Of a DNA stretch of 23,996 bases, positions 1 to 20,464 are shown piece by piece. This DNA is from a virus. Lineage: Duplodnaviria > Heunggongvirae > Uroviricota > Caudoviricetes. The stretch lies in IMG/VR virus record IMGVR_UViG_2713896899_000017, one strand, 5' to 3'. Below the pieces are notes generated by a model, which did no database searches, was not told the origin of the DNA, and was given only the letters and a program-made list of their open reading frames with translations. How positions within the stretch are numbered: position 1 is the first letter of the stretch; each line of letters begins with the position of its first letter. The translations under genes and the position numbers were made by a program.

Positions 1-1053
1 TTACGGGGTAATGCCAACCGCTGCCGCCACTTTGTCGCCACTTGGCAGCGTTGCCAGAGGATTGAAACGGAGCGCCGTTTCCAGATGATCCGGTGCCAGA
101 TGTGCGTAACGCATAGTCATTTTTATATCGTGGTGTCCGAGAATTTTTTGTAAGGCCAGAATGTTTCCACCCGACATCATGAAGTGCGCCGCAAACGTAT
201 GGCGCAGAACGTGTGTGAGTTGACCGCGAGGGAGCACGATAGACGTTTTTTCCATCACGGATAAAAATTGAAAATAGCAGTCTGTGAAGAAATTGAACCC
301 ATCAAGCGCCATGATCTCTTCGTAAAGCTCTTTACTGATAGGGATGCTTCTGTTTTTCTTCCCCTTCGTTCTTACAAAGGTAATTCGGTATTTGGTCACC
401 TGTGAACGAGTAAGATTTACGGCTTCTCGCCAGCGTGCGCCTGTGCTTAAGCATATCTTAACTACCAGTGCCAGAATTGGGTCCTGACGTTTGCAATCAG
501 CCAGTAATTCAACAATCTGCTCATGGGTAAGCCATGCCATCTCTTTTTCTGCGATGGTGAATTTTCGCATGTTCTCCAGTGGGTTCGGATACGACCATTC
601 GCCCAGGCGGGATAGTTCGCTAAAAACACTACTTAGATAGCTTTGCTCCAGGTTAATGGTGACCGGGCTTGCTCCTTTCTTCCATTTCTCGCTGAAGTAG
701 ATCTCACCTGTCAGGCGTTTATCTCGATAGTGGGCAAACATTTTAGAGGTTAGATCAGTTGCAAGGGGATTGCCCAGAGCGTCAACCATCAGCAGCAATT
801 TGTCATAGACATGCTGCCCAGCAGTCAGTGATTTACCATGTAGTTTGAACCATAGCTCAACCACGTCTTTCAGTGTTCGACGATCCACTGATTCACCTAG
901 CCAGGGCTTTGCTTCGGTTTCTTCCATCGTGTGACGCTCAAAAGCCAGTGCTTCGCCTTTGGTGTCGAATTGTTTACGCACACGACGCCCACTACGTCCG
1001 GCGGGGTAACATTCGCAAAGCCATTTTCCTGTGGTGAGTTTTCGTACAGCCAT
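1..1053 (-). CDS. int: Phage integrase, tyrosine recombinase (P2/186 Int family)
   Basis: Translation from the internal Met (MAVRKLTTGKWLCECYPAGRSGRRVRKQFDTKGEALAFERH...) has a P2/186 Int-like N-terminus and a C-terminal catalytic region (HVLRHTFAAHFMMSGGNILALQKILGHHDIKMTMRYAHL). GGAGG-like RBS precedes the ATG at 1053; stop codon is at 1-3. Confidence 0.9.
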   Translation of the reverse strand: MAVRKLTTGKWLCECYPAGRSGRRVRKQFDTKGEALAFERHTMEETEAKPWLGESVDRRTLKDVVELWFKLHGKSLTAGQHVYDKLLLMVDALGNPLATDLTSKMFAHYRDKRLTGEIYFSEKWKKGASPVTINLEQSYLSSVFSELSRLGEWSYPNPLENMRKFTIAEKEMAWLTHEQIVELLADCKRQDPILALVVKICLSTGARWREAVNLTRSQVTKYRITFVRTKGKKNRSIPISKELYEEIMALDGFNFFTDCYFQFLSVMEKTSIVLPRGQLTHVLRHTFAAHFMMSGGNILALQKILGHHDIKMTMRYAHLAPDHLETALRFNPLATLPSGDKVAAAVGITP

Positions 1054-1241
1054 AAAAAATGCCCTCCAATAGAGAGCATTTTTACTGTATGTATAACCAG
1101 TGTCAATGTATGAAATCCTGCGACCATACATCTCACTGAAGCCATAATGAAGTAGGCTATTCTTTTTGCTATGTGATCATGTAACTTTTGCGGTTAACCT
1201 GTGGCTCATTTTTATTTTAGGCGCAGATATAAAAGCAAAAG

Positions 1242-1448: not shown

Positions 1449-2018
1449 CTATTTAACATACTTGACTGTTAAACTTATAATTTTACCAATTATTTCAATG
1501 TCTTCTATCTTACATTCAAAGGCTCTGTTTCCACCCTCGACGAAGATTCTTCCACCGGGTAAACGAGTAATGTCACGGATCGTTATTTCGCCATCAATAC
1601 TTATTACCCATTTACCATCACGTATATCATCAAATTCCTTATCACAAATAAATTCAGAATTATTATCTGTGATTACAAAAAGATTCTTGAATGCCGACGG
1701 TAGAAATTCTCTATCGAAAATATAAAAACCGTCTTCACACAAGGCCCCATCAGATAATACATATTTAGCAACTTCCATAGTATTTGTATTACCTGAAGTT
1801 TGCTTTGAACCATGCCCGGTTGTGAGCCAATTAAGCGAGGTGCCTGTTTCAAGGGCGCACTGGATTACCCATTCTGCTGGGAATGAGTCACGCATGTAGC
1901 GTGTGGCGAGTGTACTTTTAGAGATTCCTAAATGATCGCACAACGCCTGTCGAGTCTTGAATCCATAAGCTTCTACCATGCGCTCTATGGCGCCTCGTCC
2001 GCCTTTCTCCAAATTCAT
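1449..2018 (-). CDS. cI: Phage 186 CI-type immunity repressor
   Basis: About 190 aa, with N-terminal HTH-like segment (YGFKTRQALCDHLGISKSTLATRYMRDSFPAEW...ALETGTSLNWLTTG). Sits upstream of int on the same strand and divergent from apl/cII, as in 186. ATG at 2018 is preceded by GGAG; the ORF track starts at an in-frame GTG at 2024. Confidence 0.8.
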   Translation of the reverse strand: MNLEKGGRGAIERMVEAYGFKTRQALCDHLGISKSTLATRYMRDSFPAEWVIQCALETGTSLNWLTTGHGSKQTSGNTNTMEVAKYVLSDGALCEDGFYIFDREFLPSAFKNLFVITDNNSEFICDKEFDDIRDGKWVISIDGEITIRDITRLPGGRIFVEGGNRAFECKIEDIEIIGKIISLTVKYVK

Positions 2019-2143
2019 GGTCACTCCAAGTGAACTTTTATCTTGACGATTTCACCATGCGATCGTATGTTTATGGTGTTCACAAAATACAAACGATCCG
2101 TATTCGTCCTGATTAATCATCATTAAACGAGGAATGTTGCATC
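2019..2143. promoter_or_regulatory. Lysis/lysogeny switch region between cI and apl (expected pR/pL promoters and operators)
   Basis: Intergenic region between divergently oriented cI and apl; in 186 it carries face-to-face pR and pL. Exact promoter and operator positions not resolved by eye. Confidence 0.5.
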
Positions 2144-3721: not shown

Positions 3722-3948
3722 TGGCTGATGCAATGGATCTTGTACAGCAGCGCGTTGAAGAAGAACGCCAGCGCCATATCCGTGCTGCCCGTGCCAAAAC
3801 GCCGGGCGTGTCCCGCGTGCTTTGCATTGAGTGTGAAGCGCCAATTCCGCCAGCACGCCGCCGCGCCATTCCAGGTGTGCAGCTTTGCATTACCTGTCAG
3901 GAAATCGCAGAGCTGAAAGGCAAACATTACAACGGAGGTGCTGTATGA
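3721..3948 (+). CDS. DksA/TraR-family C4 zinc-finger protein
   Basis: 75 aa with CIECEAPIPPARRRAIPGVQLCITC (C-x2-C-x17-C-x2-C), typical of phage TraR-like proteins; translationally coupled to the flanking genes. Confidence 0.75.
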   Translation: MADAMDLVQQRVEEERQRHIRAARAKTPGVSRVLCIECEAPIPPARRRAIPGVQLCITCQEIAELKGKHYNGGAV

Positions 3949-4802
3949 GCACCATCCTGAAATGGGCGGGAAATAAAACCGCCATTATGTCCGAACTGAA
4001 AAAACACCTTCCTGCTGGCCCGCGACTGGTTGAACCTTTCGCGGGTTCCTGTGCTGTGATGATGGAGACGGATTACCCCAGCTATCTGGTTGCGGATATT
4101 AATCCTGATTTAATCAACCTCTATAAAAAGGTTGCCGCTGATTGTGAATCGTTTATATCTCGCGCCAGAGTTTTATTTGAGATCGCAAACAGGGAGGTGG
4201 CTTATTACAACATAAGGCAGGAGTTTAATTACTCTACTGAAATTACTGATTTCATGAAAGCGGTATATTTCCTGTATCTCAATCGTCACGGTTACCGTGG
4301 TTTATGTCGCTATAACAAGAGCGGGCATTTCAACATTCCCTACGGTAATTATAAAAATCCGTATTTCCCTGAAAAAGAAATTCGCGCATTTGCAGAAAAA
4401 GCCCAGCGGGCAACGTTTATCTGCGCCAGCTTTGATGAAACGCTGGCGATGTTGAAGGCGGGGGATGTGGTGTATTGCGATCCGCCGTATGACGGCACGT
4501 TTTCCGGTTATCACACTGACGGCTTCACTGAAGATGACCAGTATCACCTGGCATCCGTTCTTGAACATCGGTCATCAGAAGGACATCCGGTCATTGTTTC
4601 TAACAGTGACACATCCCTGATCCGTTCGCTGTATCGCAATTTTACTCACCACTACATCAAGGCAAAACGCAACATCGGTGTGGCAGCTGGCGAGGGTAAA
4701 TCAGCAACAGAAATCATTGCTGTTTCCGGGCCGCGCTGCTGGGTGGGATTTGATTATTCGCGTGGCGTGGACAGTTCTGCCGTGTACGGAGTACGTGCAT
4801 GA
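3945..4802 (+). CDS. dam: DNA adenine methyltransferase (Dam-like N6-adenine MTase)
   Basis: [12 protein letters not shown]-terminus, FAGSCAV (AdoMet-binding FxGxG-like motif) and VYCDPPYDG (DPPY catalytic motif). GGAGGTG RBS; ATGA overlap with the upstream gene and with A. Confidence 0.85.
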
Positions 4803-7213
4803 GTCATGCCGATATGAACAACTGCTGCGGCTTTAACGAGGCTGCCGCAGCATTCTCATGGAACAGCCCGAAAAAGGCCATTAACCCTTATCTGGACCCG
4901 GCGGAAGTTGCGCCGGTTTCTGCGCTTTCAAACCTGATCACTCTGTACGCTGCCGATAACGAGCAGGAACAACTGCGCCGCGAGGCACTGAGTGATCAGG
5001 TCTGGGAGCGTTATTTCTTTAATGAATCCCGTGATCCTGTCCAGCGCGAAATGGAGCAGGATAAGCTAATTAGCCGGGCAAAGCTGGCGCATGAGCAGCA
5101 GCGTTTTAATCCAGACATGGTCATTCTGGCGGATGTCAACGCCCAGCCTTCCCATATCAGCAAGCCGCTGATGCAACGTATTAAATACTTCAGCAACCTG
5201 GGCAGGCCAAAGGCTTATTCCCGCTATTTGCGTGAGACGATTAAGCCATGCCTGGAACGACTGGAGCATGTACGCGACAGCCAGCTATCTGCATCTTTTC
5301 GTTTTATGGCAAGCCATGAAGGGCTGGACGGTCTGCTGATCCTGCCTGAAATGAGTCAGGATCAGGTGAAACGCCTGTCCACCCTTGTCGCTGCGCATAT
5401 GAGCATGTGTCTTGATGCCGCTTGTGGTGATTTGTACGCCTCCGATGATGTTAAGCCGGAAGAAATCCGCAAGACATGGGAAAAGGTGGCAGCAGAAACC
5501 CTGCGACTGGATGTCATACCGCCTGCGTTTGAGCAACTCCGCCGGAAAAGAAACCGCCGCAAACCTGTGCCCTATGAACTCATTCCGGGTTCGCTGGCGC
5601 GTATGCTGTGCGCCGACTGGTGGTATCGGAAATTATGGAAGATGCGTTGCGAATGGCGGGAAGAGCAGTTGCGTGCTGTCTGTCTGGTCAGCAAAAAAGC
5701 ATCTCCCTATGTCAGCTATGAAGCCGTGATGCATAAACGTGAGCAGCGCCGTAAGTCGCTGGAGTTTTTCCGTTCTCATGAACTGGTGAACGAAGACGGC
5801 GACACGCTGGACATGGAGGATGTGGTAAACGCCAGCAGCAGCAACCCTGCGCATCGCCGCAATGAGATGATGGCCTGTGTTAAAGGCCTGGAGCTTATCG
5901 CGGAAATGCGCGGTGACTGCGCCGTTTTCTACACCATCACCTGTCCGTCACGTTTCCATTCCACGCTAAATAACGGCAGGCCCAACCCGACCTGGACAAA
6001 TGCGACGGTAAGACAAAGCAGTGATTATCTGGTTGGCATGTTTGCTGCATTTCGTAAGGCGATGCACAAAGCCGGATTGCGCTGGTATGGCGTGCGGGTG
6101 GCTGAGCCGCATCATGACGGTACAGTTCACTGGCACCTGTTGTGTTTTATGCGCAAAAAAGATCGCCGCGCCATTACTGCTTTGTTGCGTAAGTTTGCCA
6201 TTCGTGAAGACCGCGAGGAGCTGGGGAATAACACGGGACCACGCTTTAAGTCTGAGTTGATTAACCCGCGCAAAGGAACGCCGACAAGCTACATCGCGAA
6301 ATATATCAGTAAGAACATTGACGGGCGTGGTCTGGCTGGCGAGATCAGCAAGGAAACGGGTAAATCCCTGCGTGATAACGCTGAATACGTGAATGCCTGG
6401 GCGTCTCTGCATCGTGTTCAGCAATTCCGCTTCTTTGGCATTCCGGGGCGTCAGGCTTACCGTGAACTGCGATTGCTGGCTGGTCAGGCGGCAAGGCAAC
6501 AGGGTGACAAAAAAGCAGGTGCGCCGGTACTGGATAACCCGCGGCTTGATGCAATCCTGGCTGCTGCTGATGCTGGTTGTTTTGCCACCTACATCATGAA
6601 GCAGGGCGGCGTACTGGTTCCCCGTAAATATCACCTCATCAGAACTGCTTATGAAATCAACGAAGAGCCGACCGCCTATGGCGATCACGGCATTCGTATT
6701 TATGGCATCTGGTCACCTATTGCAGAGGGCAAGATCTGCACTCATGCCGTGAAGTGGAAAATGGTTCGTAAGGCCGTTGACGTTCAGGAGGCGGCAGCCG
6801 ACCAGGGCGCTTGCGCCCCTTGGACTCGTGGCAATAACTGTCCCCTTGCTGAAAATTTGTACCAACAAGGGAAAGACAAATCAGCTGATGGAGATACCAG
6901 AACGGATATCACCCGCATGGATGACAAGGAGTTGCACGATTACCTGCACAGTATGAGCAAAAAAGAACGCCGGGAACTGGCAGCAAGGTTACGCCTGGTG
7001 AAACCGAAACGGCGTAAAGACTACAAACAGCGAATTACAGACCATCAGCGACTGCAGCTCGTGTATGAACTGAAGTCCAGGGGATTTGATGGCAGTGAGA
7101 AAGAGGTCGATTTACTGCTTCGCGGCGGCAGTATTCCGTCAGGAGCAGGCCTGCGTATCTTCTATCGGAACCAGCGTTTGCAGGAAGATGATAAGTGGCG
7201 GGATCTGTATTAA
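4799..7213 (+). CDS. A: Replication initiation endonuclease (P2 gpA-type rolling-circle initiator)
   Basis: 804-aa ORF with metal-binding [10 protein letters not shown] (HUH-like) and paired active-site tyrosines in YIAKYISKN, as in P2 A; follows the early genes as in P2/186. Confidence 0.85.
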
Positions 7214-7305
7214 TTACGCGGGTTAACAATTCGTGCTCTTAATAATACCAGGTATATCAGGCTGATGATCGTAAAAAAACGTTTTACATCAGTAAGATTA
7301 TTATA

Positions 7306-7325
7306 TACTGTAAATATAAACAGTG
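7306..7325. promoter_or_regulatory. LexA operator (SOS box) in front of the tum-like operon
   Basis: tACTGTaaatataaACAGtg has the CTGT-N8-ACAG LexA consensus with an AT-rich spacer; located about 40 nt upstream of the ATG at 7365. Confidence 0.75.
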
Positions 7326-7364
7326 GTTATGTATACAGTGTTACTTGGTGTCATAGGAGGAAAG

Positions 7365-7553
7365 ATGCAGGACTATTTTTTGGAGTCTTTGAAGCTCCAG
7401 CGCATTGATTTTTTTCTTAAGCTTGTAGCGGCTAGTGAGTGTAGTGATGAAGAGAAGGGGCTGGCCCTGCAGTGGGTTTCTGAACTGACAGATGAACTCA
7501 TGGCAAAAATCAGAACCCACGAATACAACCGCTCAATGGATGTCATCAGCTGA
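7365..7553 (+). CDS. Small SOS-controlled protein (62 aa), possible N-terminal Tum-like antirepressor part
   Basis: AGGAGG RBS at 7355-7360, ATG at 7365, directly downstream of the LexA box; sits where 186 tum lies (right of A). Function inferred from position only. Confidence 0.55.
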   Translation: MQDYFLESLKLQRIDFFLKLVAASECSDEEKGLALQWVSELTDELMAKIRTHEYNRSMDVIS

Positions 7554-7563
7554 GGTGACTTTT

Positions 7564-7797
7564 ATGCGCATTGAAATAATGATCGATAAAGAGCAGAAGA
7601 TTAGCCAGTCTACACTGGACGCCCTTGAATCCGAGCTTTACCGCAATCTGCGCCCCCTGTATCCCAAGACGGTAATTCGTATCCGCAAAGGTAGCTCTAA
7701 CGGTGTGGAACTGACCGGACTGCAACTGGACGAAGAAAGAAAACAAGTGATGAAAATTATGCAGAAGGTGTGGGAAGACGACAGCTGGCTGCATTAA
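7564..7797 (+). CDS. DinI-family protein (SOS regulator of RecA activity)
   Basis: MRIEIMIDKEQKISQSTLDALESELYRNL...KVWEDDSWLH resembles E. coli DinI (MRIEVTIAK...DALAGELSRR...ETWESADDWF). GAGGTGA RBS; immediately follows the previous ORF in another frame. Confidence 0.8.
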   Translation: MRIEIMIDKEQKISQSTLDALESELYRNLRPLYPKTVIRIRKGSSNGVELTGLQLDEERKQVMKIMQKVWEDDSWLH

Positions 7798-8067
7798 GAA
7801 ACGTTGCTGGCGTCTGAACTTGCTTCTGGCGTCAGCAAGGTTGAACAACGAGCTATGCGAGGCGTTAGTGTCAATTTGTTACCTTAACCACTATATATGC
7901 CAGGAAATTAACAGTTCTTAAGAAACCGCTTGCATGATCGAGCGCATTGAACTTAAGTTTAAGTAACGAAATCAACAGATGATATTGTTGTCTAAATTTT
8001 AAAGATAATCTGTTGAGGTTGTAGGCGTCGGAGTGTAGACTTCCGCGCCATGTTAAAAGGAGGAGTT

Positions 8068-8283
8068 ATGTCAAGCATCGCCGCATTTAGCCTGGGTAAC
8101 CCAGTTGAACGTCTGGCAAGGGTTCTTAAAGAGAACCAGGACAAACTCAATCTTAGTAAAGATGGTTTTGTGTCCGTAGACTTGTCTAACAAAAGAGCAA
8201 TGGATGCCATCAAGGCACAGATGGATAAGCTTGAAGGCATCAAAACGAGCACTGTAAAAGAGAAAACTAATAGAACCAGATAA
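8068..8283 (+). CDS. Small soluble protein (71 aa), first gene of a two-gene accessory operon
   Basis: Strong RBS AAGGAGGAG 3-4 nt before the ATG at 8068; no TM segment; stop overlaps the start of the next gene by 1 nt (TAATG). No recognisable family. Confidence 0.6.
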   Translation: MSSIAAFSLGNPVERLARVLKENQDKLNLSKDGFVSVDLSNKRAMDAIKAQMDKLEGIKTSTVKEKTNRTR

Positions 8284-9125
8284 TGGCAACATTACTTTTA
8301 GCAGTGATTTTGGTTAGTGGTTTTATTTATGTAAACCTATCACTTTCAACAAGATACCGATATAAGCGTTCCAACGGCTGGGACGCTTATTTTTTTGTGG
8401 CTGCCTGGGGTATCGTTTTTTTTCTCCTTGGCGGTTTTTTCACCTTTATTTTGAACGTCAGCGGAGGGTTTCGTTGGCTGGCGAATGCCTTGAATCTAAC
8501 ACCTGACAGTTTTAATGGCATGTTGTCTTCATCGAAAGACAAACTTCAAAGAATAAATGAAATCAAACAGATAGCATGGGTTATGATTTCAATTGTCCTC
8601 GCTGCGATTTCAGGTTTTGGAAATAAGTTACGCACATCACGTGGAGATCGTCGCTGGGATGCCTTAGCTAAAGCTGTGGGTAATAACGCTTTCGAATCAT
8701 TACTCATGGAAGCGTCCGCAAGACAGTTTCCGATCATAGCAACTCTGTCGTCTCGCAAAATCTATGTTGGTCTTGTTACTTGTCCGGCGTTAGAAAACGG
8801 GCTTTCAGAGCACCTTGAACTTCTCCCGATGTTAAGCGGATATCGGGATAAAGATGATCTAACGATTAGTATCACGACTAACTATCACCAACATTATCTT
8901 GATAGTGGTGTGATAAGTGGAATGTCTCGGCTTAATATCGAAGATTTCCGTGTGCTCATACCAAAAGATGAGGTTGAAACAATTTCGTTTTTTGATACTG
9001 AGACATATAACAAATTTAAAGAAAATGAAGCCAGGGATAGAAAGAACTGTCGAAAGATTGGTAGTAAAAGTGCATCTTCGCGCAGCAAGCGTGCAGCAGA
9101 TGCTGAGTCAAATGATCGTGCATGA
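8283..9125 (+). CDS. Membrane protein with three predicted TM helices and a roughly 165-aa soluble C-terminal domain ending in a basic tail; unknown function
   Basis: Hydrophobic segments TLLLAVILVSGFIYVNL, YFFVAAWGIVFFLLGGFFTFILNV and IAWVMISIVLAAISGFG; translationally coupled to the upstream small ORF; followed by a rho-independent terminator. Confidence 0.6.
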   Translation: MATLLLAVILVSGFIYVNLSLSTRYRYKRSNGWDAYFFVAAWGIVFFLLGGFFTFILNVSGGFRWLANALNLTPDSFNGMLSSSKDKLQRINEIKQIAWVMISIVLAAISGFGNKLRTSRGDRRWDALAKAVGNNAFESLLMEASARQFPIIATLSSRKIYVGLVTCPALENGLSEHLELLPMLSGYRDKDDLTISITTNYHQHYLDSGVISGMSRLNIEDFRVLIPKDEVETISFFDTETYNKFKENEARDRKNCRKIGSKSASSRSKRAADAESNDRA

Positions 9126-9173
9126 CTATGCTGCATGAGAACGCATGATCGTTTGAGGATCGTTTTTGCTAAG

Positions 9174-9197
9174 GCCCGCCAGAACTGGCGGGCTTTT
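9174..9197 (+). terminator. Rho-independent terminator of the two-gene operon
   Basis: GCCCGCCAG aa CTGGCGGGC perfect 9-bp GC-rich stem followed by TTTT. Confidence 0.75.
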
Positions 9198-9242
9198 GCG
9201 TAGATCATGCAACTGCATGAAAACCACTACATAAAGTGGGCA

Positions 9243-9261
9243 GGCGTGGCGGGGATACGAG
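9243..9261. other. Candidate cos (cohesive-end) site
   Basis: GGCGTGGCGGGGATACGAG: the first 13 nt match the P2/186 19-nt cohesive end as I remember it (P2 GGCGAGGCGGGGAAAGCAC, 186 GGCGTGGCGGGGAAAGCAT). Lies between A and Q, where cos sits in P2. Confidence 0.45.
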
Positions 9262-9328
9262 CGCGCGCAACGGGTTGTCATTCAAACTCCAATGCTATAA
9301 AACTGTGTAATACAAACAACTAAAGTAG

Positions 9329-11083
9329 GTGGCCTCAGTGGAACTGCAAGCAAATGCTCGAACCTTAACAAACGTGTTATCTGTAAATAAAAAATATATA
9401 GTCCCTAGATTCCAAAGAGAATATTCTTGGGGGAAGGAACAAGTAAGTGAACTTTGGCATGATATAGTTTCCAATATTCATTACCAGGAGGATGGGCAGT
9501 ATCAATATGATGAGTATTTCATCGGTGCTCTCGTTTTGGTCGGGCAGGAAACTAGCTCTGAGCTGATGATTGTAGATGGTCAACAACGTCTTACGACTCT
9601 TACTATATTGTTATCAGCATTATGTGATAAATTTAAGTTGATAAATGAGTTGGCTGTAGCTCAATCAATATATAATAATTATATATCTGGTATGGATGAC
9701 GATGGCAGACCTTTTTTTAAATTAGTTAATGAAACTCCTAAGCCATACTTTCAAAACAACATTCAGCATATTGATAAGAGAAATGAAGGACCGGAGTCCC
9801 TTGAAGAAAGAAACTTGCAATCTTCATATAATGATTTAACTGAGTATCTTTCAGAAGATAATCTTTGCCAGACATTAGGAGTAGATAGAGAGAAATTTAT
9901 CTACTTGGAAGCGTTGAAGGCTGTGCGGGATCAAGTTCTACGGTATCTGAAAGTGATTTATATTACAGTTAATGATGAAGATGAAGCTTATACAATCTTT
10001 GAAACTCTGAATGCTAGGGGATTAAACTTAAGTTATGTAGATCTTATAAAAAACAAATTATTTAAGAAACTGAATGGCACACATCCTGATGATGATGCAA
10101 AAACTAAATGGAATAAAATTAGGCAAATAATTGCTAGTCGTAATGGTGTCGGTTCTATCGAGACATTTATCCGTCATTGGTGGGTGTCAAAATATTCTTA
10201 TGTAAGTAGTGACACTCTTTATAAAGCTTTTCTGGATAAGTGGAAAAAAGGCGACATTGATGCTTCAGCGTTCATTGATGAGCTACTTTCAGATGCCGAG
10301 ATATATGTGAAAATATCATCGCCTACAGAACAGGATTTTCCTGAACTGGAAATGAAACCAGTTTATCGAGGTTTGCAGGCATTAAGGCTGTTTAACATAT
10401 CTCAGAATAAACCATTTTTGTTATCTTTATTTAAGGCAAGAGCAAGAGGAACGCTAAAACTTGTTGATATGAATAATGCAGTGCTGTCAATTGAACGCTT
10501 TCATTTTATGTTTAATGCTATTTGTTCATTGCGACCATCAGGTATTGAAAGTGCGTATGCTAAAGCTGCTAGGGCTTTAGTGGATGAAGGTTCTACTAAA
10601 GCTAGTAATAGACAAGTAATAAAGTCTTTGCTTGAAATGTTGGTGAAGAGAAAACCAGACATTAATATGTTTGTTGAAAAGTTTGTTATGCTTAAATTTT
10701 CAAATCAAGAGTTGAAAAATAAAAGGTTGATTCAGTACATTTTTAATAGACTTGAGTTACATCACATGAAAACGGGGGAGTATATGCCTGATTCATTAAC
10801 ATTAGAGCATATTCAGCCTCAGAGTGTGGGGGATTCTGAAGTATATAGCATGATAGGAAATTTATTACCACTTTCAAAAGAATTAAATGAAAAAGCTGGA
10901 AATAAGTCTGTTGTGGATAAGCTTGAAATTTATAAACAATCACAATATGCGCTAGTTAAAATTTTTATTGATGAATTTGAAAATAAATATCAAGGAGAAT
11001 GGACGCCCGATCATATGAGGTCAAGAGCTGCTGAACTAAGTATTTTATCGTATAATTCAGTATGGAAATTGGGGCGTGAGTAA
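9329..11083 (+). CDS. DUF262/DUF1524 two-domain protein (GmrSD-like type IV, modification-dependent restriction endonuclease family)
   Basis: N-terminal DUF262 signatures (PRFQREYSWG, IVDGQQRLTTL) and C-terminal His-Me/HNH-like region (LTLEHIQPQS ... NEKAGNKSVVDK). Strongly AT-rich. GTG start at 9329 per ORF track; an AGGTGG RBS favours the in-frame GTG at 9338. Confidence 0.7.
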   Translation: MASVELQANARTLTNVLSVNKKYIVPRFQREYSWGKEQVSELWHDIVSNIHYQEDGQYQYDEYFIGALVLVGQETSSELMIVDGQQRLTTLTILLSALCDKFKLINELAVAQSIYNNYISGMDDDGRPFFKLVNETPKPYFQNNIQHIDKRNEGPESLEERNLQSSYNDLTEYLSEDNLCQTLGVDREKFIYLEALKAVRDQVLRYLKVIYITVNDEDEAYTIFETLNARGLNLSYVDLIKNKLFKKLNGTHPDDDAKTKWNKIRQIIASRNGVGSIETFIRHWWVSKYSYVSSDTLYKAFLDKWKKGDIDASAFIDELLSDAEIYVKISSPTEQDFPELEMKPVYRGLQALRLFNISQNKPFLLSLFKARARGTLKLVDMNNAVLSIERFHFMFNAICSLRPSGIESAYAKAARALVDEGSTKASNRQVIKSLLEMLVKRKPDINMFVEKFVMLKFSNQELKNKRLIQYIFNRLELHHMKTGEYMPDSLTLEHIQPQSVGDSEVYSMIGNLLPLSKELNEKAGNKSVVDKLEIYKQSQYALVKIFIDEFENKYQGEWTPDHMRSRAAELSILSYNSVWKLGRE

Positions 11084-11110
11084 ATGCCGGGGGGGGGCCC
11101 AGCATATTTA

Positions 11111-12160
11111 TCAAAAAGAATCGTTTGTGAAATTTAGGGAGTAGGCATCAAAGCGTATTGCTTCTTCGCCTAGCCAATAGTTAAGTTCTTGTAGCTGTTT
11201 CTGCAGGGGCATCAGTTCGTTGCGGACAAAAACACGACTAGCCTTCTCCACATCACCAAAGCCCCCAACATTATTAGGCATTATCCCCATCATTTGCGGC
11301 GGCACACGGTGTGCCGCCATCATGTCGTCCCGGCTCACGTTCTTGATATTCAGAAACTCATCCTTCGCCGCGACTTCTGACAACGGGATAATCTGAAGCC
11401 CGTCCTTTTTGCCGTTAGGAGAGTACATAAACAGGTTGCGGAAGTTGCCTGGCCCTTTGGCACTTTTCATTGCATTGCGGAGGTTGTTCACATCCTCCTG
11501 GTTCTGCGCGGCATCGGTCATGTACATGATGAAGCCTGCATGACTGCCGTTAATATAATACTTCCGGCGGAACAGCGTGGCGGACTCGTTGAGCAGGGCT
11601 GATGGAATGGCAGAAAGATAACTTGGCAGGCCGTAGATCTCCTGGTTGATGTCCGGTTCCATCAGATGAAAAATGCTGCCTTTCGTGAACTGATACGGCT
11701 GGGTTGTCATACCGTATTGCACAAACCAGTAGGTATCCAGGTCTAACCCGCGTCGGGTGTATTTTGCCAGAGCAGGCTCAAGGGCGATAACTTCACCGAA
11801 GCGGTTCGTGCGTTTCTCCAGGTAGGCGTTACCAAATACCAGATAGTCCTGCACAAAACGTGAAAAAGCCTGCTGGCTGAGCAGCGGGTGAGGGATGTAG
11901 GTACTGGTCAGAATGTTGCATTTCACCGCAATTGGTGAGCTGTGATGCACGGCGGCGCGGAAGGTTCGTGCCAGTCCGTCAAAGCTGACGGGCGGCTCAT
12001 ACCAGCGGTCCATCTGTACGCATTCCACATAGTCCAGCAGTTCTCGGCGGTCCAGAACAGGAACGGGATCGCCGAAGCTGAATGCTTCGGCTGTAGTCTG
12101 GCTTTTAAGCTGGATCTGTTTCGTCGCCGCAGCGCGGTTCTTCTTACTCTTTCCCATCAA
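11111..12160 (-). CDS. Q: Portal protein (P2 gpQ family)
   Basis: 349 aa, convergent on cos/accessory region, ATGA-overlapped by P upstream; P2 Q-like sequence and position. Confidence 0.85.
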   Translation of the reverse strand: MMGKSKKNRAAATKQIQLKSQTTAEAFSFGDPVPVLDRRELLDYVECVQMDRWYEPPVSFDGLARTFRAAVHHSSPIAVKCNILTSTYIPHPLLSQQAFSRFVQDYLVFGNAYLEKRTNRFGEVIALEPALAKYTRRGLDLDTYWFVQYGMTTQPYQFTKGSIFHLMEPDINQEIYGLPSYLSAIPSALLNESATLFRRKYYINGSHAGFIMYMTDAAQNQEDVNNLRNAMKSAKGPGNFRNLFMYSPNGKKDGLQIIPLSEVAAKDEFLNIKNVSRDDMMAAHRVPPQMMGIMPNNVGGFGDVEKASRVFVRNELMPLQKQLQELNYWLGEEAIRFDAYSLNFTNDSF

Positions 12161-13923
12161 AAAATCTCCACAATATTGCTGGTATTGGCGGATTCGCCCT
12201 GCAGCGGTTCGTTAAACAATGCGTGCATCGTTGCCCAGGCCAGATCGGCGTGGCTGGCTTCTTCGCTGCGGCTGGCTTCATAGGTCGGGCGGTTGCCGCT
12301 GGCGGTGGTTGCGCGACGGATTGCCATGAATGACTGCGCAATGTCGGTGTGTCCGGCGTCAAACTCCAGACGGCGGTGGCTGATAATGTCGTAGGCCTTG
12401 AGTACCAGGGCGTTTTTAACGTTGGGGTTGTAGACAAACTCCCGGACGGCTGGAAAAAACGCTTTCACGTTCTCGTAAACACCGTGGCCGACACCTGTCG
12501 AGTCGATGCCGATGTAGGTCACGTTGTACTGCTCGGTCAGTTTTTTGATGGCGTCAGCCTGGGCGCGGAAGTCCATCCCGCGCCACTGGTGACGCTCAAG
12601 AATGCGGAACTTACCACCCGGCACGGCTGGCGGTGCCACCACCACGCATCCGGCACTGTCGCCGTTCTGCGTACCTTTTGCCGGGTCATAACCGATCCAC
12701 ACTTCGCGCCAGCCAAACGGGCGCAGGGCCAGTGCATGAAAGTCGGTCCAGACTTCCCAACTGTCCACCATGCACGCTTGCAGCTCGCTGAGCGGGAACA
12801 CGGACGCGAGATCGTCCACAAACTCACACATCAGCAGGTTCTGGTATTCGTCCGGGCTGTACTCCATGCGCAACTGGTCGAGGTCGAACAGGTTACAGCC
12901 GCCCCGCACCGCATCTTCCACGGTGACTATCTGGCGGTACTGCCCGTCTGCGCACAGCAGGCCGGGGGCCAGATTGCTGTGGGACAGGTCGATGTCCACC
13001 TTATCGGCTTTGTTGCGCCCTCGGTTGAACAGCGCACCGGACCAGAACGGATAAGCACTGTGTGTCAGACTGGATGGTGTGGAAAAATAGGTCTGTCGCC
13101 ATTTTTTGTGAATAGCCATACCGGAAGCCACTTTGCGCAGCTCCTGGAATTTCGGTATCCAGAAATATTCATCCAGATACAGGTTGCCGTGGTAACTCTG
13201 GGCCGTGCGGGCATTGGTGCCGAGGAAGTAAAGCGTGGCCCCGTTAGGAAGCACCATCGGATCACCTTTCAGCTCCACCTCGACTTCTTTGGCGAAATCG
13301 ATGATGTACTGCTTAAAGACGTGAGCCTGTGCCTTACTGGCAGAAAGGAAAATCTGGTTACGTCCGGTAAGCAGGGCGTCAATTAGGGCTTCACGGGCAA
13401 AATAGAAGGTCGCGCCGATCTGGCGTGACTTTAGCAGGTTGCGGATGCGGTTGGTTTTTCCGGCTTCCCACCAGTGGCGCTGGTAGTTGAACATGGAGGA
13501 ATGGAAAATTTCTTCCAGCTTCTCAATCTGTTCATCGGTGAAAACATTCTTTTCAGGCTGACGGCGCGGGCCTTTGTTGCGGTTGGCGACGTTAGGGTTT
13601 AAGTCGGCTTCGTTGCCGCCATTGTTAAACTTGCCGATCCGCGCGTGGCGCTCAGACTGGCGCGCCAGCAGGTCAATCTCTTTGAAATCTTTCCCTTCTT
13701 TGTGTTCCTTCATAATGAGCTGGCAGTAGCGTGCGGCGGTGGTGAGCTGCATCTGATCCAGCGGCCCATAGTCACCCCACTTGTCGCGTTTTTTCCAGCT
13801 GTGAACGGTTGCAACTTTCTCGCCCAGCATTTCAGCAATGCGGGCTACGCGGTATCCCTGAAAGTACAGCAGCATGGCCTGCCGACGGGGATCGAGATCT
13901 GCGGGTGTCAGTGTGGTGTTCAT
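12157..13923 (-). CDS. P: Terminase large (ATPase) subunit (P2 gpP family)
   Basis: 588 aa, divergent from O across the late promoter region; P2 P-like. Confidence 0.85.
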   Translation of the reverse strand: MNTTLTPADLDPRRQAMLLYFQGYRVARIAEMLGEKVATVHSWKKRDKWGDYGPLDQMQLTTAARYCQLIMKEHKEGKDFKEIDLLARQSERHARIGKFNNGGNEADLNPNVANRNKGPRRQPEKNVFTDEQIEKLEEIFHSSMFNYQRHWWEAGKTNRIRNLLKSRQIGATFYFAREALIDALLTGRNQIFLSASKAQAHVFKQYIIDFAKEVEVELKGDPMVLPNGATLYFLGTNARTAQSYHGNLYLDEYFWIPKFQELRKVASGMAIHKKWRQTYFSTPSSLTHSAYPFWSGALFNRGRNKADKVDIDLSHSNLAPGLLCADGQYRQIVTVEDAVRGGCNLFDLDQLRMEYSPDEYQNLLMCEFVDDLASVFPLSELQACMVDSWEVWTDFHALALRPFGWREVWIGYDPAKGTQNGDSAGCVVVAPPAVPGGKFRILERHQWRGMDFRAQADAIKKLTEQYNVTYIGIDSTGVGHGVYENVKAFFPAVREFVYNPNVKNALVLKAYDIISHRRLEFDAGHTDIAQSFMAIRRATTASGNRPTYEASRSEEASHADLAWATMHALFNEPLQGESANTSNIVEIF

Positions 13924-19884: not shown

Positions 19885-20415
19885 TTACGCACTTAATAAA
19901 CTTAAATAACTTTTTATGCTTTGGCAAAAAGGGAAAAGGTCTATTTTAATTTTCCAGTTTTTTTTGTTTTGAACCCCAGAAGCAATAATAGAACCATCCC
20001 AATATTTTATTCCATTTTTGCCGGTCTTTTTTGTTAACTCAAAACTTAATGCGTGAATAATTTTGTTGCAGCATTCGCGTATAGAACCTTTAACATGACC
20101 ATCTATAACAAAAAGTATATTTTCATGTTCTTCAAATGCTTCTTTCTCAGGTGAGTAATCTGGGTTCCACTCATGTTCACTAGTGTCTTGGAGAATTCGT
20201 AGTTTTGTACAAAGGCTAATAAGATTGTTGCTAATGGTATATTCCAACCATCCGTTGTACGATAACTCCTCTATTTCAAATTCAGTTACTATAGAACCAT
20301 CATATACTTTCTGTGTGGAATATATACGCTGTAAATAAAATTCAGATGAACAGCATAATTGCTCAATTATTCTTGCGTGTTCTTCTATAGCGTAGTAATC
20401 AATTGGATGGCTCAT
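19885..20415 (-). CDS. AT-rich hypothetical protein (about 176 aa) encoded antisense between S and V (P2 orf30 position)
   Basis: Minus-strand ORF; the internal ATG at 20415 has an AAAGGTAAAAG-type RBS. Strongly AT-rich against a GC-richer backbone; no TM segment or recognisable motif. Confidence 0.6.
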   Translation of the reverse strand: MSHPIDYYAIEEHARIIEQLCCSSEFYLQRIYSTQKVYDGSIVTEFEIEELSYNGWLEYTISNNLISLCTKLRILQDTSEHEWNPDYSPEKEAFEEHENILFVIDGHVKGSIRECCNKIIHALSFELTKKTGKNGIKYWDGSIIASGVQNKKNWKIKIDLFPFCQSIKSYLSLLSA

Positions 20416-20446
20416 TCTTTTACCTTTCTTCGATTGGAATTGTATT

Positions 20447-20464
20447 TGTGTCATTTACCACACA
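20447..20464. promoter_or_regulatory. Ogr/Delta-type TGT-N12-ACA dyad upstream of V (putative late promoter PV)
   Basis: TGTgtcatttaccacACA in the intergenic region just upstream of V. Confidence 0.5.

What the first reader, a model, noticed from the sequence alone, without database searches (positions are those of the whole stretch)
9329..11083. AT-rich DUF262/DUF1524 (GmrSD-like) nuclease gene inserted next to the portal gene
The 584-aa protein has the DUF262 hallmark motifs (FQREYSWG, DGQQR) and a C-terminal His-Me-finger/DUF1524-like region (EHIQPQ ... N-x-K-x-G-N-K), the architecture of GmrSD-type modification-dependent restriction enzymes and BrxU-like defenses. The gene is far more AT-rich than the phage backbone and sits in the A-to-Q hotspot, convergent on Q with only about 27 bp between stop codons. 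It is probably a phage-borne defense gene protecting the lysogen against phages with modified DNA.
Basis: partly seen in the sequence, partly recalled or inferred. Interest (0 to 1): 0.6.

Follow-up and report, generated by a model that had tools for sequence, protein, structure and literature searches.

The report
Prophage-borne GmrSD-type restriction nuclease gene
A P2/186-like prophage carries, between its DNA-packaging (cos) site and its portal gene, an AT-rich single gene for a GmrSD-family nuclease that most likely protects the lysogen from phages with modified DNA; this is an ordinary cargo gene that published tables already list.

Summary
An intact ORF ends at 11083, and its true start is the GTG at 9338, giving 581 aa rather than 584. 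It matches Pfam GmrSD_N (1e-38) and GmrSD_C (1.2e-11) and carries all family motifs: QR, DGQQR, FxxxN and the EH...N...N His-Me finger. Its GC is 34%, against 52-56% in the flanking phage genes, and it converges on portal gene Q with 27 bp between the stop codons.

The best full-length profile match is PADLOC HEC-06 (3.8e-90). HEC-06 is an experimentally validated single-gene GmrSD-like defence reported to block T4. The closest solved folds are DndI, SspE and BrxU.

The gene occupies the slot between cos (9243-9261) and Q, at the left end of the packaged genome. Its cassette is ≥99.8% identical in only 6 of 5426 complete E. coli genomes, next to varying neighbouring cargo, so it acts as a self-contained unit.

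The exact protein, WP_000422658, is already listed in Rousset et al. 2022 as DUF262/DUF1524 cargo of the P2 A-Q hotspot. Silas et al. 2025 place it in GmrSD cluster CLS_024, which they did not test. Its target specificity is therefore inferred, not shown.

The parts
9338..11083 (+). CDS for a 581-aa DUF262/DUF1524 (GmrSD-family, HEC-06-like) nuclease, identical to WP_000422658.1. It starts with GTG and ends with TAA.
   Evidence: ORF. RefSeq annotation of the identical gene. M-E-L N-terminus invariant in 56 homologs. Homologs have ATG at this codon. Pfam and PADLOC hits.
9371..10063 (+). N-terminal DUF262 / GmrSD_N ParB-like NTPase domain. Motifs in 581-aa numbering: QR at 26-27, DGQQR at 80-84, FETLN at 221-225.
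   Evidence: Pfam PF03235, E 1e-38. Motifs invariant in the alignments. The N-terminus matches the SspE and DndI sequences.
10697..11038 (+). C-terminal DUF1524 / GmrSD_C His-Me finger nuclease domain, with E490-H491 at the end of strand beta1, N508 in beta2 and N517 in the following helix.
   Evidence: Pfam PF07510, E 1.2e-11. These residues are invariant. The AlphaFold model shows strand 488-491, strand 509-512 and helix 514-520.
9275..9301 (+). Putative promoter of the cassette: TTGTCA (9275-9280), a 15-nt spacer, then the extended -10 element TGcTATAAA (9293-9301).
   Evidence: Read from the sequence. The same elements are conserved in the 82-83% homologs, and a TGnTGTAAT element sits at the same place in three of the four 53-56% homologs. 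The generic promoter scan did not call it because of the 15-nt spacer. This part is inferred.
9327..9332 (+). Shine-Dalgarno sequence AGGTGG, 5 nt upstream of the GTG start.
   Evidence: Sequence.
9243..9261 (.). Cohesive-end (cos) site of the prophage, GGCGTGGCGGGGATACGAG. It marks the left boundary of the cos-to-Q cargo slot. Sequence shared with prophages whose slot is empty ends at 9274.
   Evidence: Gap-free alignment to the annotated P2 cosL/cosR 19-mer GGCGAGGCGGGGAAAGCAC. Invariant core in 9 related loci. Comparison with the empty slot of E. coli TUM1881.
11084..11110 (.). 27-bp spacer between the convergent stop codons of the nuclease gene and Q. It holds a G9C3 run that forms an 8-bp hairpin on the Q-strand transcript, a possible weak terminator in the place of P2 tQ.
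   Evidence: Sequence. Fold of the minus strand: -12.9 kcal/mol, z = -2.2. P2 has the annotated terminator tQ at the equivalent position. The G-run length varies from 7 to 9 between genomes.
11111..12160 (-). Portal gene Q, the right boundary of the slot. The ORF as listed starts at a TTG; RefSeq annotates a start 3 nt shorter.
   Evidence: ORF. Annotated as phage portal protein in the near-identical locus.

Best explanation
The gene encodes a stand-alone GmrSD-family enzyme of the HEC-06-like branch. It is carried as accessory cargo by a P2/186-like temperate phage, in the slot between cos and the portal gene.

The proposed mechanism has three steps. First, the gene is transcribed from its own promoter just right of cos, probably in the lysogen (inferred). 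Second, the N-terminal ParB-like DUF262 domain binds and hydrolyses NTP through the QR/DGQQR/FxxxN pocket and acts as the DNA sensor and switch. Third, it licenses the C-terminal DUF1524 His-Me finger (E490/H491, N508, N517) to cut incoming phage DNA that carries modified bases, most likely the glucosyl-hmC or hmC DNA of T-even phages. The Dam/Dcm-methylated DNA of the host and prophage is spared.

Shown here: the domain architecture, intact catalytic motifs, the fold, the single-gene cassette nature, the foreign composition and the location in the hotspot. Inferred from relatives: anti-phage activity, NTP dependence and dependence on DNA modification.
For: - Domains: Pfam GmrSD_N 1e-38 and GmrSD_C 1.2e-11.
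- Defence profiles: PADLOC HEC-06 matches end to end (3.8e-90, residues 1-581 against profile positions 1-566 of 569), ahead of the 'Orf5' models, with SspE and mREase_IV matching only the N-terminus.
- Motifs: all family motifs are invariant in 56 homologs.
- Fold: the AlphaFold model has mean pLDDT 86 and a beta-beta-alpha element at the EH/N/N residues. Foldseek finds only GmrSD-like structures: DndI 9jfl 2e-14, SspE 2.4e-13, BrxU 2.5e-5.
- Link to a tested protein: 27% identity, collinear, with the available first ~400 aa of the tested HEC-06 protein WP_096851903 (E 3e-31). In that protein, mutations in DGQQR and EH abolish defence.
- Target class: HEC-06 is reported to block T4, and a 22%-identical homolog blocks T-even phages but not T4-GT7.
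- Single-gene unit: the cassette is ≥99.8% identical in 6 E. coli genomes with four different neighbouring cargoes. The 54% and 60% homologs examined in Stanieria and Pectobacterium are also single genes with no dnd, ssp or second DUF262 gene nearby.
- Location: the P2 A-Q hotspot holds old/tin and many defence systems, and Rousset et al. label the 55% paralog found there 'Type-IV restriction enzyme'.
Against: - No experiment exists for this protein or its cluster. CLS_024 was not among the clusters synthesised in PMC12373910.
- The protein is only 27% identical to the tested HEC-06. GmrSD-like proteins differ widely in specificity, and SspE and DndI use the same architecture for the opposite logic.
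- The closest solved relative by sequence and fold is DndI, a phosphorothioate (PT) sensor.
- Of 15 GmrSD groups tested against T-even phages in PMC12373910, only 8 showed activity, so a T-even target is not guaranteed.
- The promoter and expression in the lysogen are inferred only.
Confidence: 0.8

Rival explanations
1. It is a phosphorothioate-sensing effector like SspE or DndI. In that case it would read PT marks on the host's own DNA and nick or cut unmodified foreign DNA, so it would need a host dnd or ssp modification module.
For: The best sequence match in the PDB is DndI (9jfl, E 1.4e-12, matching both domains), followed by SspE. The same two lead the fold search. PADLOC SspE models match the N-terminus at 3.7e-21.
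Against: - Identity to DndI and SspE is only 15-19%, and the SspE profiles cover residues 8-117 only. The HEC-06 profile scores far higher over the full length.
- No dnd or ssp genes lie in the window, in the six E. coli prophages, in the Klebsiella lambdoid prophages, or next to the Pectobacterium and cyanobacterial homologs.
- The cassette moves between phages and hosts on its own.
- DndI is harmful to cells that lack PT, which would make it poor cargo for a roaming prophage.
Confidence: 0.07
2. It is not host defence. It would be an HNH-type nuclease serving the phage itself or acting as a selfish element, for example in competition with P4-type satellites or other P2-like phages, or in a homing-like spread of the cos-Q segment.
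For: The gene sits 13 bp beyond the cohesive-end sequence. The cos-gene-Q unit is conserved across divergent P2-like phages. A fossil of the whole unit lies in lambdoid prophages. Rousset et al. showed that hotspot cargo can act against related P2-like phages.
Against: Close homologs (54-60%) occur as lone chromosomal genes in Pectobacterium islands and in cyanobacteria with no phage context. The architecture and motifs are those of defence nucleases with an NTPase switch, not of homing endonucleases. Anti-phage and anti-satellite roles do not exclude each other.
Confidence: 0.08
3. It is an inactive relic: a decaying horizontally acquired gene with no current function.
For: It is rare (6 of 5426 complete E. 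coli genomes), has strongly atypical composition and uses a GTG start where homologs have ATG.
Against: The 581-codon frame is intact, and every catalytic and nucleotide-binding residue is conserved. The six copies from hosts on three continents are ≥99.8% identical. The Shine-Dalgarno sequence is good and the extended -10 element is conserved.
Confidence: 0.03

Closest known systems
HEC-06 (Payne et al. 2024 preprint, doi 10.1101/2024.01.29.577857; tested protein WP_096851903.1 from E. coli MOD1-EC1687)
   Same: Both are single ~560-580-aa polypeptides with an N-terminal DUF262 carrying DGQQR, a helical linker, and a C-terminal DUF1524 with an EHIxP motif. The PADLOC HEC-06 profile matches over the full length at 3.8e-90. 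The two proteins are collinear at 27% identity over the available ~400 aa. HEC-06 works alone, needs DGQQR and EH, and is reported to block T4.
   Different: Identity is only 27%. HEC-06 was found embedded in an Hma system on a chromosome, whereas this gene is prophage cargo next to cos. The phage range of this protein is unknown.
P2-hotspot system #10, 'DUF262/DUF1524, Type-IV restriction enzyme' (Rousset et al. 2022, PMC9122126, Table S5B)
   Same: It has the same architecture and the same cos-to-Q slot, convergent on Q in P2-like prophages. This exact protein, WP_000422658, is listed in Table S5A of the same paper.
   Different: The representative of system #10 is a paralog about 55% identical. 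It has 231 occurrences, whereas this allele is much rarer. The function label is a curator's note in Table S5B, and the main text names no DUF262 gene among the validated systems.
GmrSD of E. coli CT596 / Eco94GmrSD (the classical Type IV enzyme that cuts glucosyl-hmC DNA)
   Same: Same Pfam domain pair, the same QR/DGQQR/FxxxN and His-Me motifs, and action as a single polypeptide.
   Different: Sequence similarity is very low. The PADLOC type IV REase model matches only residues 9-246, at 5.6e-16. This protein falls in a different cluster (CLS_024, against CLS_006) in PMC12373910. Whether the T4 inhibitors Ip1, Ip2 or Ip3 act on it is unknown.
BrxU (BREX-associated GmrSD-like enzyme, PDB 7P9K; equivalent to HEC-05)
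   Same: Same overall fold class (Foldseek E 2.5e-5, probability 1.00) and the same architecture of an NTPase-regulated His-Me nuclease.
   Different: BrxU is not detectable by sequence search and shares 13% identity in the structural alignment. The HEC-06 group lacks BrxU's RLFDS motif. BrxU is embedded in a BREX locus.
DndI (PDB 9JFL) and SspE (PDB 6JIV, 7DRR), phosphorothioate-sensing effectors
   Same: They are the closest solved structures (2e-14 and 2.4e-13). DndI has the same length and two-domain layout.
   Different: They work with adjacent dnd or ssp modification genes and target unmodified DNA. No such genes accompany this gene in any context examined.

Membership tests
GmrSD family (DUF262 + DUF1524 Type IV restriction enzymes, sensu Machnicka et al. 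2015) | N-terminal DUF262 (PF03235) ParB/Srx-like domain | tested here: met
   Pfam GmrSD_N scores 133.9 bits against a cut-off of 33.2, E 1e-38, covering profile positions 3-199 of 199.
GmrSD family (DUF262 + DUF1524 Type IV restriction enzymes, sensu Machnicka et al. 2015) | Three DUF262 motifs: QR, (I/V)DGQQR and FxxxN | tested here: met
   F25-Q26-R27, V79-D80-G81-Q82-Q83-R84 and F221-E-T-L-N225 are all invariant in 56 homologs.
GmrSD family (DUF262 + DUF1524 Type IV restriction enzymes, sensu Machnicka et al. 2015) | C-terminal DUF1524 (PF07510) His-Me finger with (D/E)H ... N ... N on a beta-beta-alpha element | tested here: met
   Pfam GmrSD_C scores 45.2 bits against a cut-off of 23, E 1.2e-11. 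E490, H491, N508 and N517 are invariant. The model has strand 488-491, strand 509-512 and helix 514-520.
GmrSD family (DUF262 + DUF1524 Type IV restriction enzymes, sensu Machnicka et al. 2015) | Both domains on one polypeptide, joined by a long alpha-helical linker | tested here: met
   The model shows helices spanning residues 233-476 between the two domains, at high pLDDT. Full-length structural matches to DndI, SspE and BrxU.
GmrSD family (DUF262 + DUF1524 Type IV restriction enzymes, sensu Machnicka et al. 2015) | NTP-stimulated cleavage of DNA with modified bases, and no cleavage of unmodified DNA | not testable with these tools
   This needs purified protein and T4 glc-hmC, hmC and C DNA substrates.
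HEC-06 subfamily (PADLOC-DB v2) | Full-length match to the HEC-06 profile HMMs | tested here: met
   PDLC04154 3.8e-90 (query residues 1-581, profile 1-566 of 569), PDLC04157 1.7e-87 and PDLC04155 4.4e-84. Pairwise identity to the tested HEC-06 is 27%.
HEC-06 subfamily (PADLOC-DB v2) | Single-gene anti-phage activity that depends on DGQQR and EH | not testable with these tools
   This has been shown only for WP_096851903. Single-gene organisation is supported here by the cassette's independent movement.
PT-sensing effectors SspE / DndI | Genetic linkage to sspABCD or dndBCDE phosphorothioation genes | tested here: not met
   There are no such genes in the window or in the homolog contexts examined.
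Two-gene GmrS/GmrSD systems (TgvAB, GmrSD-ECOR17) | An adjacent second gene with a DUF262 domain only | tested here: not met
   The upstream ORFs of 77 and 280 aa have no Pfam or PADLOC hit. They are replaced by unrelated cargo in other genomes that carry the identical nuclease gene.
Cargo of the P2-like A-Q (cos-proximal) defence hotspot (Rousset et al. 2022) | Variable, compositionally foreign gene between replication gene A and portal gene Q, next to cos | tested here: met
   Gene order is A, DinI-like gene, cargo, cos, this gene, then Q. The slot is empty or differently filled in other prophages. GC is 34% against 52-56% in the flanks. The accession is listed in Table S5A.

The most novel reading that the evidence does not exclude
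This untested branch (CLS_024 and its 55% paralogs) is fixed 95 nt from the cos end across divergent P2-like phages and is unusually well conserved (52-56% identity) as far away as cyanobacteria. It could have a target range unlike the classical enzymes that cut glucosyl-hmC DNA. It might act on non-cytosine hypermodifications, or in competition between P2-like phages or against P4 satellites. Its tight linkage to cos and the 3' end of Q could also reflect selection for co-transfer as a recombination unit. The cos-gene-'Q fossil in Klebsiella lambdoid prophages fits that idea.
Probability: 0.12. Interest if true: 0.5.

Novelty: already known. Interest (0 to 1): 0.2.

Why it matters
The practical value is annotation. 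The gene labelled 'DUF262 domain-containing protein' in this prophage can be called a predicted HEC-06-like GmrSD-family Type IV restriction enzyme that sits in the cos-Q cargo slot. Strains lysogenic for such prophages may resist T-even-like therapeutic phages, and this cluster (CLS_024) has never been tested. Measuring its specificity, and its sensitivity to the T4 internal proteins, would add one more data point to the arms race between GmrSD enzymes and Ip inhibitors. Nothing here challenges current understanding.

Tried and rejected
- NCBIfam gave no hit for the nuclease or for the two upstream ORFs, so no curated name is available.
- The generic sigma-70 scan found no promoter upstream of the gene, and the total number of promoter-like sites in 7200-11300 was below the shuffled expectation. 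The promoter I propose rests on an extended -10 element that is conserved in homologs. It remains an inference.
- RefSeq annotates a 189-nt pseudogene ('hypothetical protein, internal stop') just upstream, at window 9135-9323. I checked whether it was a partner or leader gene. The stretch is in fact the terminator of the upstream module plus the cos site, and it is conserved in prophages that lack the nuclease gene. I rejected it as a gene.
- I considered that the 77-aa and 280-aa ORFs might form a system with the nuclease. This is rejected. A strong terminator and cos separate them from it. The seven such genomes inspected in detail among the 1261 matched carry the pair without the nuclease. 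The nuclease also occurs with other neighbours.
- No sequenced phage in the INPHARED collection carries a close homolog; the best is 26.7% identical, in a Listeria phage. Phage carriage was therefore documented from prophages and IMG/VR contigs instead.
- I could not find out what PADLOC's 'Orf5' label stands for and treat it as a label only.
- The upstream 280-aa protein was not found in the stored, truncated part of the Rousset supplementary tables.
- Only about 400 aa of the tested HEC-06 sequence was available, so its C-terminal domain could not be compared pairwise.
Full report
**What is in the sequence.** The window is a P2/186-like prophage. Its genes run in this order:
- integrase (1-1131, minus strand);
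- CI-type repressor (1449-2024, minus strand);
- CII-like regulator;
- a Dam-type orphan methylase (3885-4802);
- replication endonuclease A (4799-7213);
- a DinI-like gene;
- two ORFs of unknown function (77 aa and 280 aa, 8050-9125);
- the ORF in question;
- on the opposite strand, portal Q (11111-12160) and terminase P (12157-13923), followed by head and tail genes.

Its start should be moved to the GTG at 9338, for four reasons. A Shine-Dalgarno sequence AGGTGG lies 5 nt upstream. RefSeq annotates that start for the identical protein WP_000422658.1. The N-terminus M-E-L is invariant in 56 homologs. The homologs have ATG at exactly that codon. The product is therefore 581 aa.

GC is 34.2% (GC3 27%), against 51.8% for Q, 56.4% for P and 53% for A. 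The nuclease gene and Q converge with 27 bp between their stop codons.

**What the protein is.** Pfam gives GmrSD_N (E 1e-38) and GmrSD_C (E 1.2e-11), both well above their curated cut-offs. In PADLOC the best matches are three HEC-06 profiles that cover the whole protein (3.8e-90, 1.7e-87, 4.4e-84). A series of models labelled 'Orf5' comes next. SspE and type IV REase models match only the N-terminal domain.

All family motifs are present and invariant across homologs:
- QR at 26-27;
- DGQQR at 80-84;
- FETLN at 221-225;
- E490-H491, N508 and N517.

An AlphaFold model built from 56 sequences has mean pLDDT 86. It places H491 at the end of a strand, N508 in the next strand and N517 in the following helix, which is the beta-beta-alpha metal finger. 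A long helical linker separates the two domains. Against the PDB, Foldseek returns only GmrSD-like proteins with significant scores: DndI (9jfl, 2e-14), SspE (2.4e-13) and BrxU (2.5e-5). By sequence alone, DndI is the best solved relative (E 1.4e-12), matching both domains.

**What is known about relatives.** HEC-06 was validated by Payne et al. (preprint 10.1101/2024.01.29.577857) as a single-gene defence. Mutations in DGQQR (Q79A, R80A) and in the EH motif (E471A, H472A) abolish protection. A later study states that HEC-06 blocks T4. It also shows that a 22%-identical homolog protects against T-even phages but not against T4-GT7, which has unmodified cytosine. The protein here is 27% identical and collinear with the available first ~400 residues of the tested HEC-06.

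GmrSD and BrxU cut DNA with modified cytosines. SspE and DndI use the same architecture to sense phosphorothioate on host DNA and need adjacent modification genes.

**Anatomy of the locus.** Window 9243-9261 (GGCGTGGCGGGGATACGAG) aligns without gaps to the annotated P2 cohesive-end 19-mer, so it is this phage's cos site. Upstream of it lies a strong terminator, GCCCGCC-AGAACT-GGCGGGC-TTTT (-27.6 kcal/mol, z = -4.1). It closes the 77-aa/280-aa module.

The nuclease gene therefore does not occupy the position of P2 old/tin, which lies between A and cos. It lies in the interval between cos and the Q stop codon, at the left end of the packaged genome. That interval is 167 nt in P2 and holds only the terminator tQ. 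Here it is 1849 nt. In E. coli TUM1881 the slot is empty, and sequence shared with the window ends at 9274, 13 nt beyond the cohesive end. In strain A30 the slot holds two other genes.

Just right of the junction are TTGTCA (9275-9280) and an extended -10 element, TGcTATAAA (9293-9301). Both are conserved in the 82-83% homologs. Three of the four 53-56% paralogs have TGnTGTAAT at the same place. I take this as the cassette's own promoter, which is an inference.

The 27-bp spacer before Q contains a G9C3 hairpin that may stand in for tQ.

RefSeq annotates a pseudogene ('internal stop') at 9135-9323. This stretch is simply the terminator plus cos, so the call is not a gene.

**The gene is a self-contained mobile unit.** The cassette 9275-11110 occurs in exactly 6 of 5426 complete E. 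coli genomes, at ≥99.8% identity. It is always next to Q in a P2-like prophage. The cargo on the other side of cos differs between them:
- the same 77-aa/280-aa pair as in the window;
- a 141-aa ORF on the opposite strand;
- a DUF4145 gene;
- three hypothetical genes.

The 77-aa/280-aa flank, by contrast, is widespread among the 1261 genomes matched by the 7200-11200 query. The seven such genomes inspected in detail carry the pair without the nuclease. The nuclease gene therefore has no fixed partner.

In IMG/VR, relatives with at least 53% identity nearly always lie in the same arrangement: cos about 95 nt upstream, then the gene, then Q on the opposite strand. This holds even in P2-like phages whose A proteins are only 33-39% identical to the one here. 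Relatives at about 30% identity occupy the other side of cos in further P2-like phages.

Homologs of 54-60% identity are lone chromosomal genes in a Pectobacterium island and in the cyanobacterium Stanieria, beside toxin-antitoxin genes. None has dnd, ssp or a second DUF262 gene nearby.

**Mechanism and rivals.** The best-supported reading is a stand-alone, modification-dependent (Type IV) restriction nuclease. It would be expressed from the prophage, with the DUF262 NTPase acting as sensor and switch and the His-Me finger as the blade. My confidence is about 0.95 for family membership, about 0.8 for defence in general, and lower for the specific target of T-even-type cytosine modification.

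There is one constraint worth noting. The prophage encodes a Dam-type methylase and lives in hosts that are normally Dam+ and Dcm+. The enzyme must therefore tolerate those marks (inference).

The phosphorothioate-sensing rival rests only on DndI and SspE being the closest solved structures. Against it stand the absence of any modification genes, the solitary mobility of the gene, and the toxicity of DndI in cells without PT. A role in phage or satellite competition is not excluded. An inactive relic is unlikely, given the intact motifs and the near-identical copies in unrelated hosts.

**Novelty.** The gene is already catalogued. Rousset et al. 2022 (PMC9122126) defined the A-Q hotspot. Their Table S5A lists WP_000422658 by accession as 'DUF262/DUF1524'. 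Their Table S5B annotates the 55% paralog as system #10, 'Type-IV restriction enzyme', with 231 occurrences. Silas et al. 2025 (PMC12373910) list WP_000422658 in GmrSD cluster CLS_024. Only the 20 commonest clusters were examined and synthesised, so this one has not been tested.

The finding is correct but ordinary. What remains open is the enzyme's specificity and whether any phage inhibitor acts on it.

Noticed in passing
window 9243-9261 (cos); RefSeq pseudogene call at 9135-9323: The prophage's cohesive-end site lies here. It splits the 'A-Q hotspot' into two separate cargo slots, A-to-cos and cos-to-Q. The RefSeq pseudogene ('hypothetical protein, internal stop') drawn over this stretch is an annotation artefact that covers a terminator plus cos.
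   Followed up: yes
L005-L008 about 5839-7937 and L021 (Klebsiella lambdoid prophages): An 86%-identical copy of the nuclease gene sits between the replication (O/P-like) genes and the nin genes of lambdoid prophages. A degenerate P2-type cos with a 2-nt deletion lies upstream. A 45-aa fragment of the portal Q C-terminus lies downstream (66.7% identity, E 1.8e-15). This is a fossil showing that the cassette was captured from a P2-like phage.
   Followed up: partly
window 8050-9125 (77-aa and 280-aa ORFs with overlapping stop and start, then a terminator at 9166-9195): This two-gene module of unknown function is widespread among the 1261 complete E. coli genomes matched by the wider 7200-11200 query. 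The 280-aa protein appears to have several N-terminal membrane helices, judged by eye from the sequence. Neither ORF has a Pfam, NCBIfam or PADLOC hit; they match only the PHROG families phrog_9843 and phrog_3630, both of unknown function. It fills the old/tin position and may be an uncharacterised accessory or defence system.
   Followed up: partly
window 11089-11097 (G run in the 27-bp spacer): The homopolymeric G tract is 9 nt long in the window but 8, 8, 8 and 7 nt in four otherwise near-identical E. coli loci. It forms part of the hairpin between the convergent genes. The variation could be slippage or sequencing error.
   Followed up: partly
window 19885-20454 (minus strand): This AT-rich (about 33% GC) 189-aa ORF lies on the opposite strand to the surrounding tail genes. 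By recall, P2 carries orf30 at the equivalent position. It has no Pfam or PADLOC hit and is probably a second cargo gene.
   Followed up: partly
window 3885-4802 (+): A D12-class N6-adenine (Dam-like) orphan methyltransferase lies just upstream of gene A and overlaps its start. The phage presumably methylates its own DNA, so the co-resident nuclease must tolerate that mark.
   Followed up: no
L043, L046-L048, L050 (IMG/VR P2-like contigs): More distant GmrSD-like genes (about 30% identity) occupy the other side of cos, in the A-to-cos slot, in other P2-like phages. Members of this family have therefore been recruited to both cos-flanking slots independently.
   Followed up: partly
homolog list (for example P0038, P0061, P0108): Dozens of cyanobacterial proteins are 52-56% identical over the full length to this enterobacterial prophage protein. 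That is about as close as the second E. coli paralog, and it points to wide and fairly recent horizontal spread of this branch.
   Followed up: no
window 7492/7564-7797 (+): A DinI-like gene (Pfam DinI, 1.3e-22) lies directly after A and is conserved in all related prophages. The ORF listing start at 7492 is probably too far upstream, since RefSeq annotates a 77-aa product.
   Followed up: no
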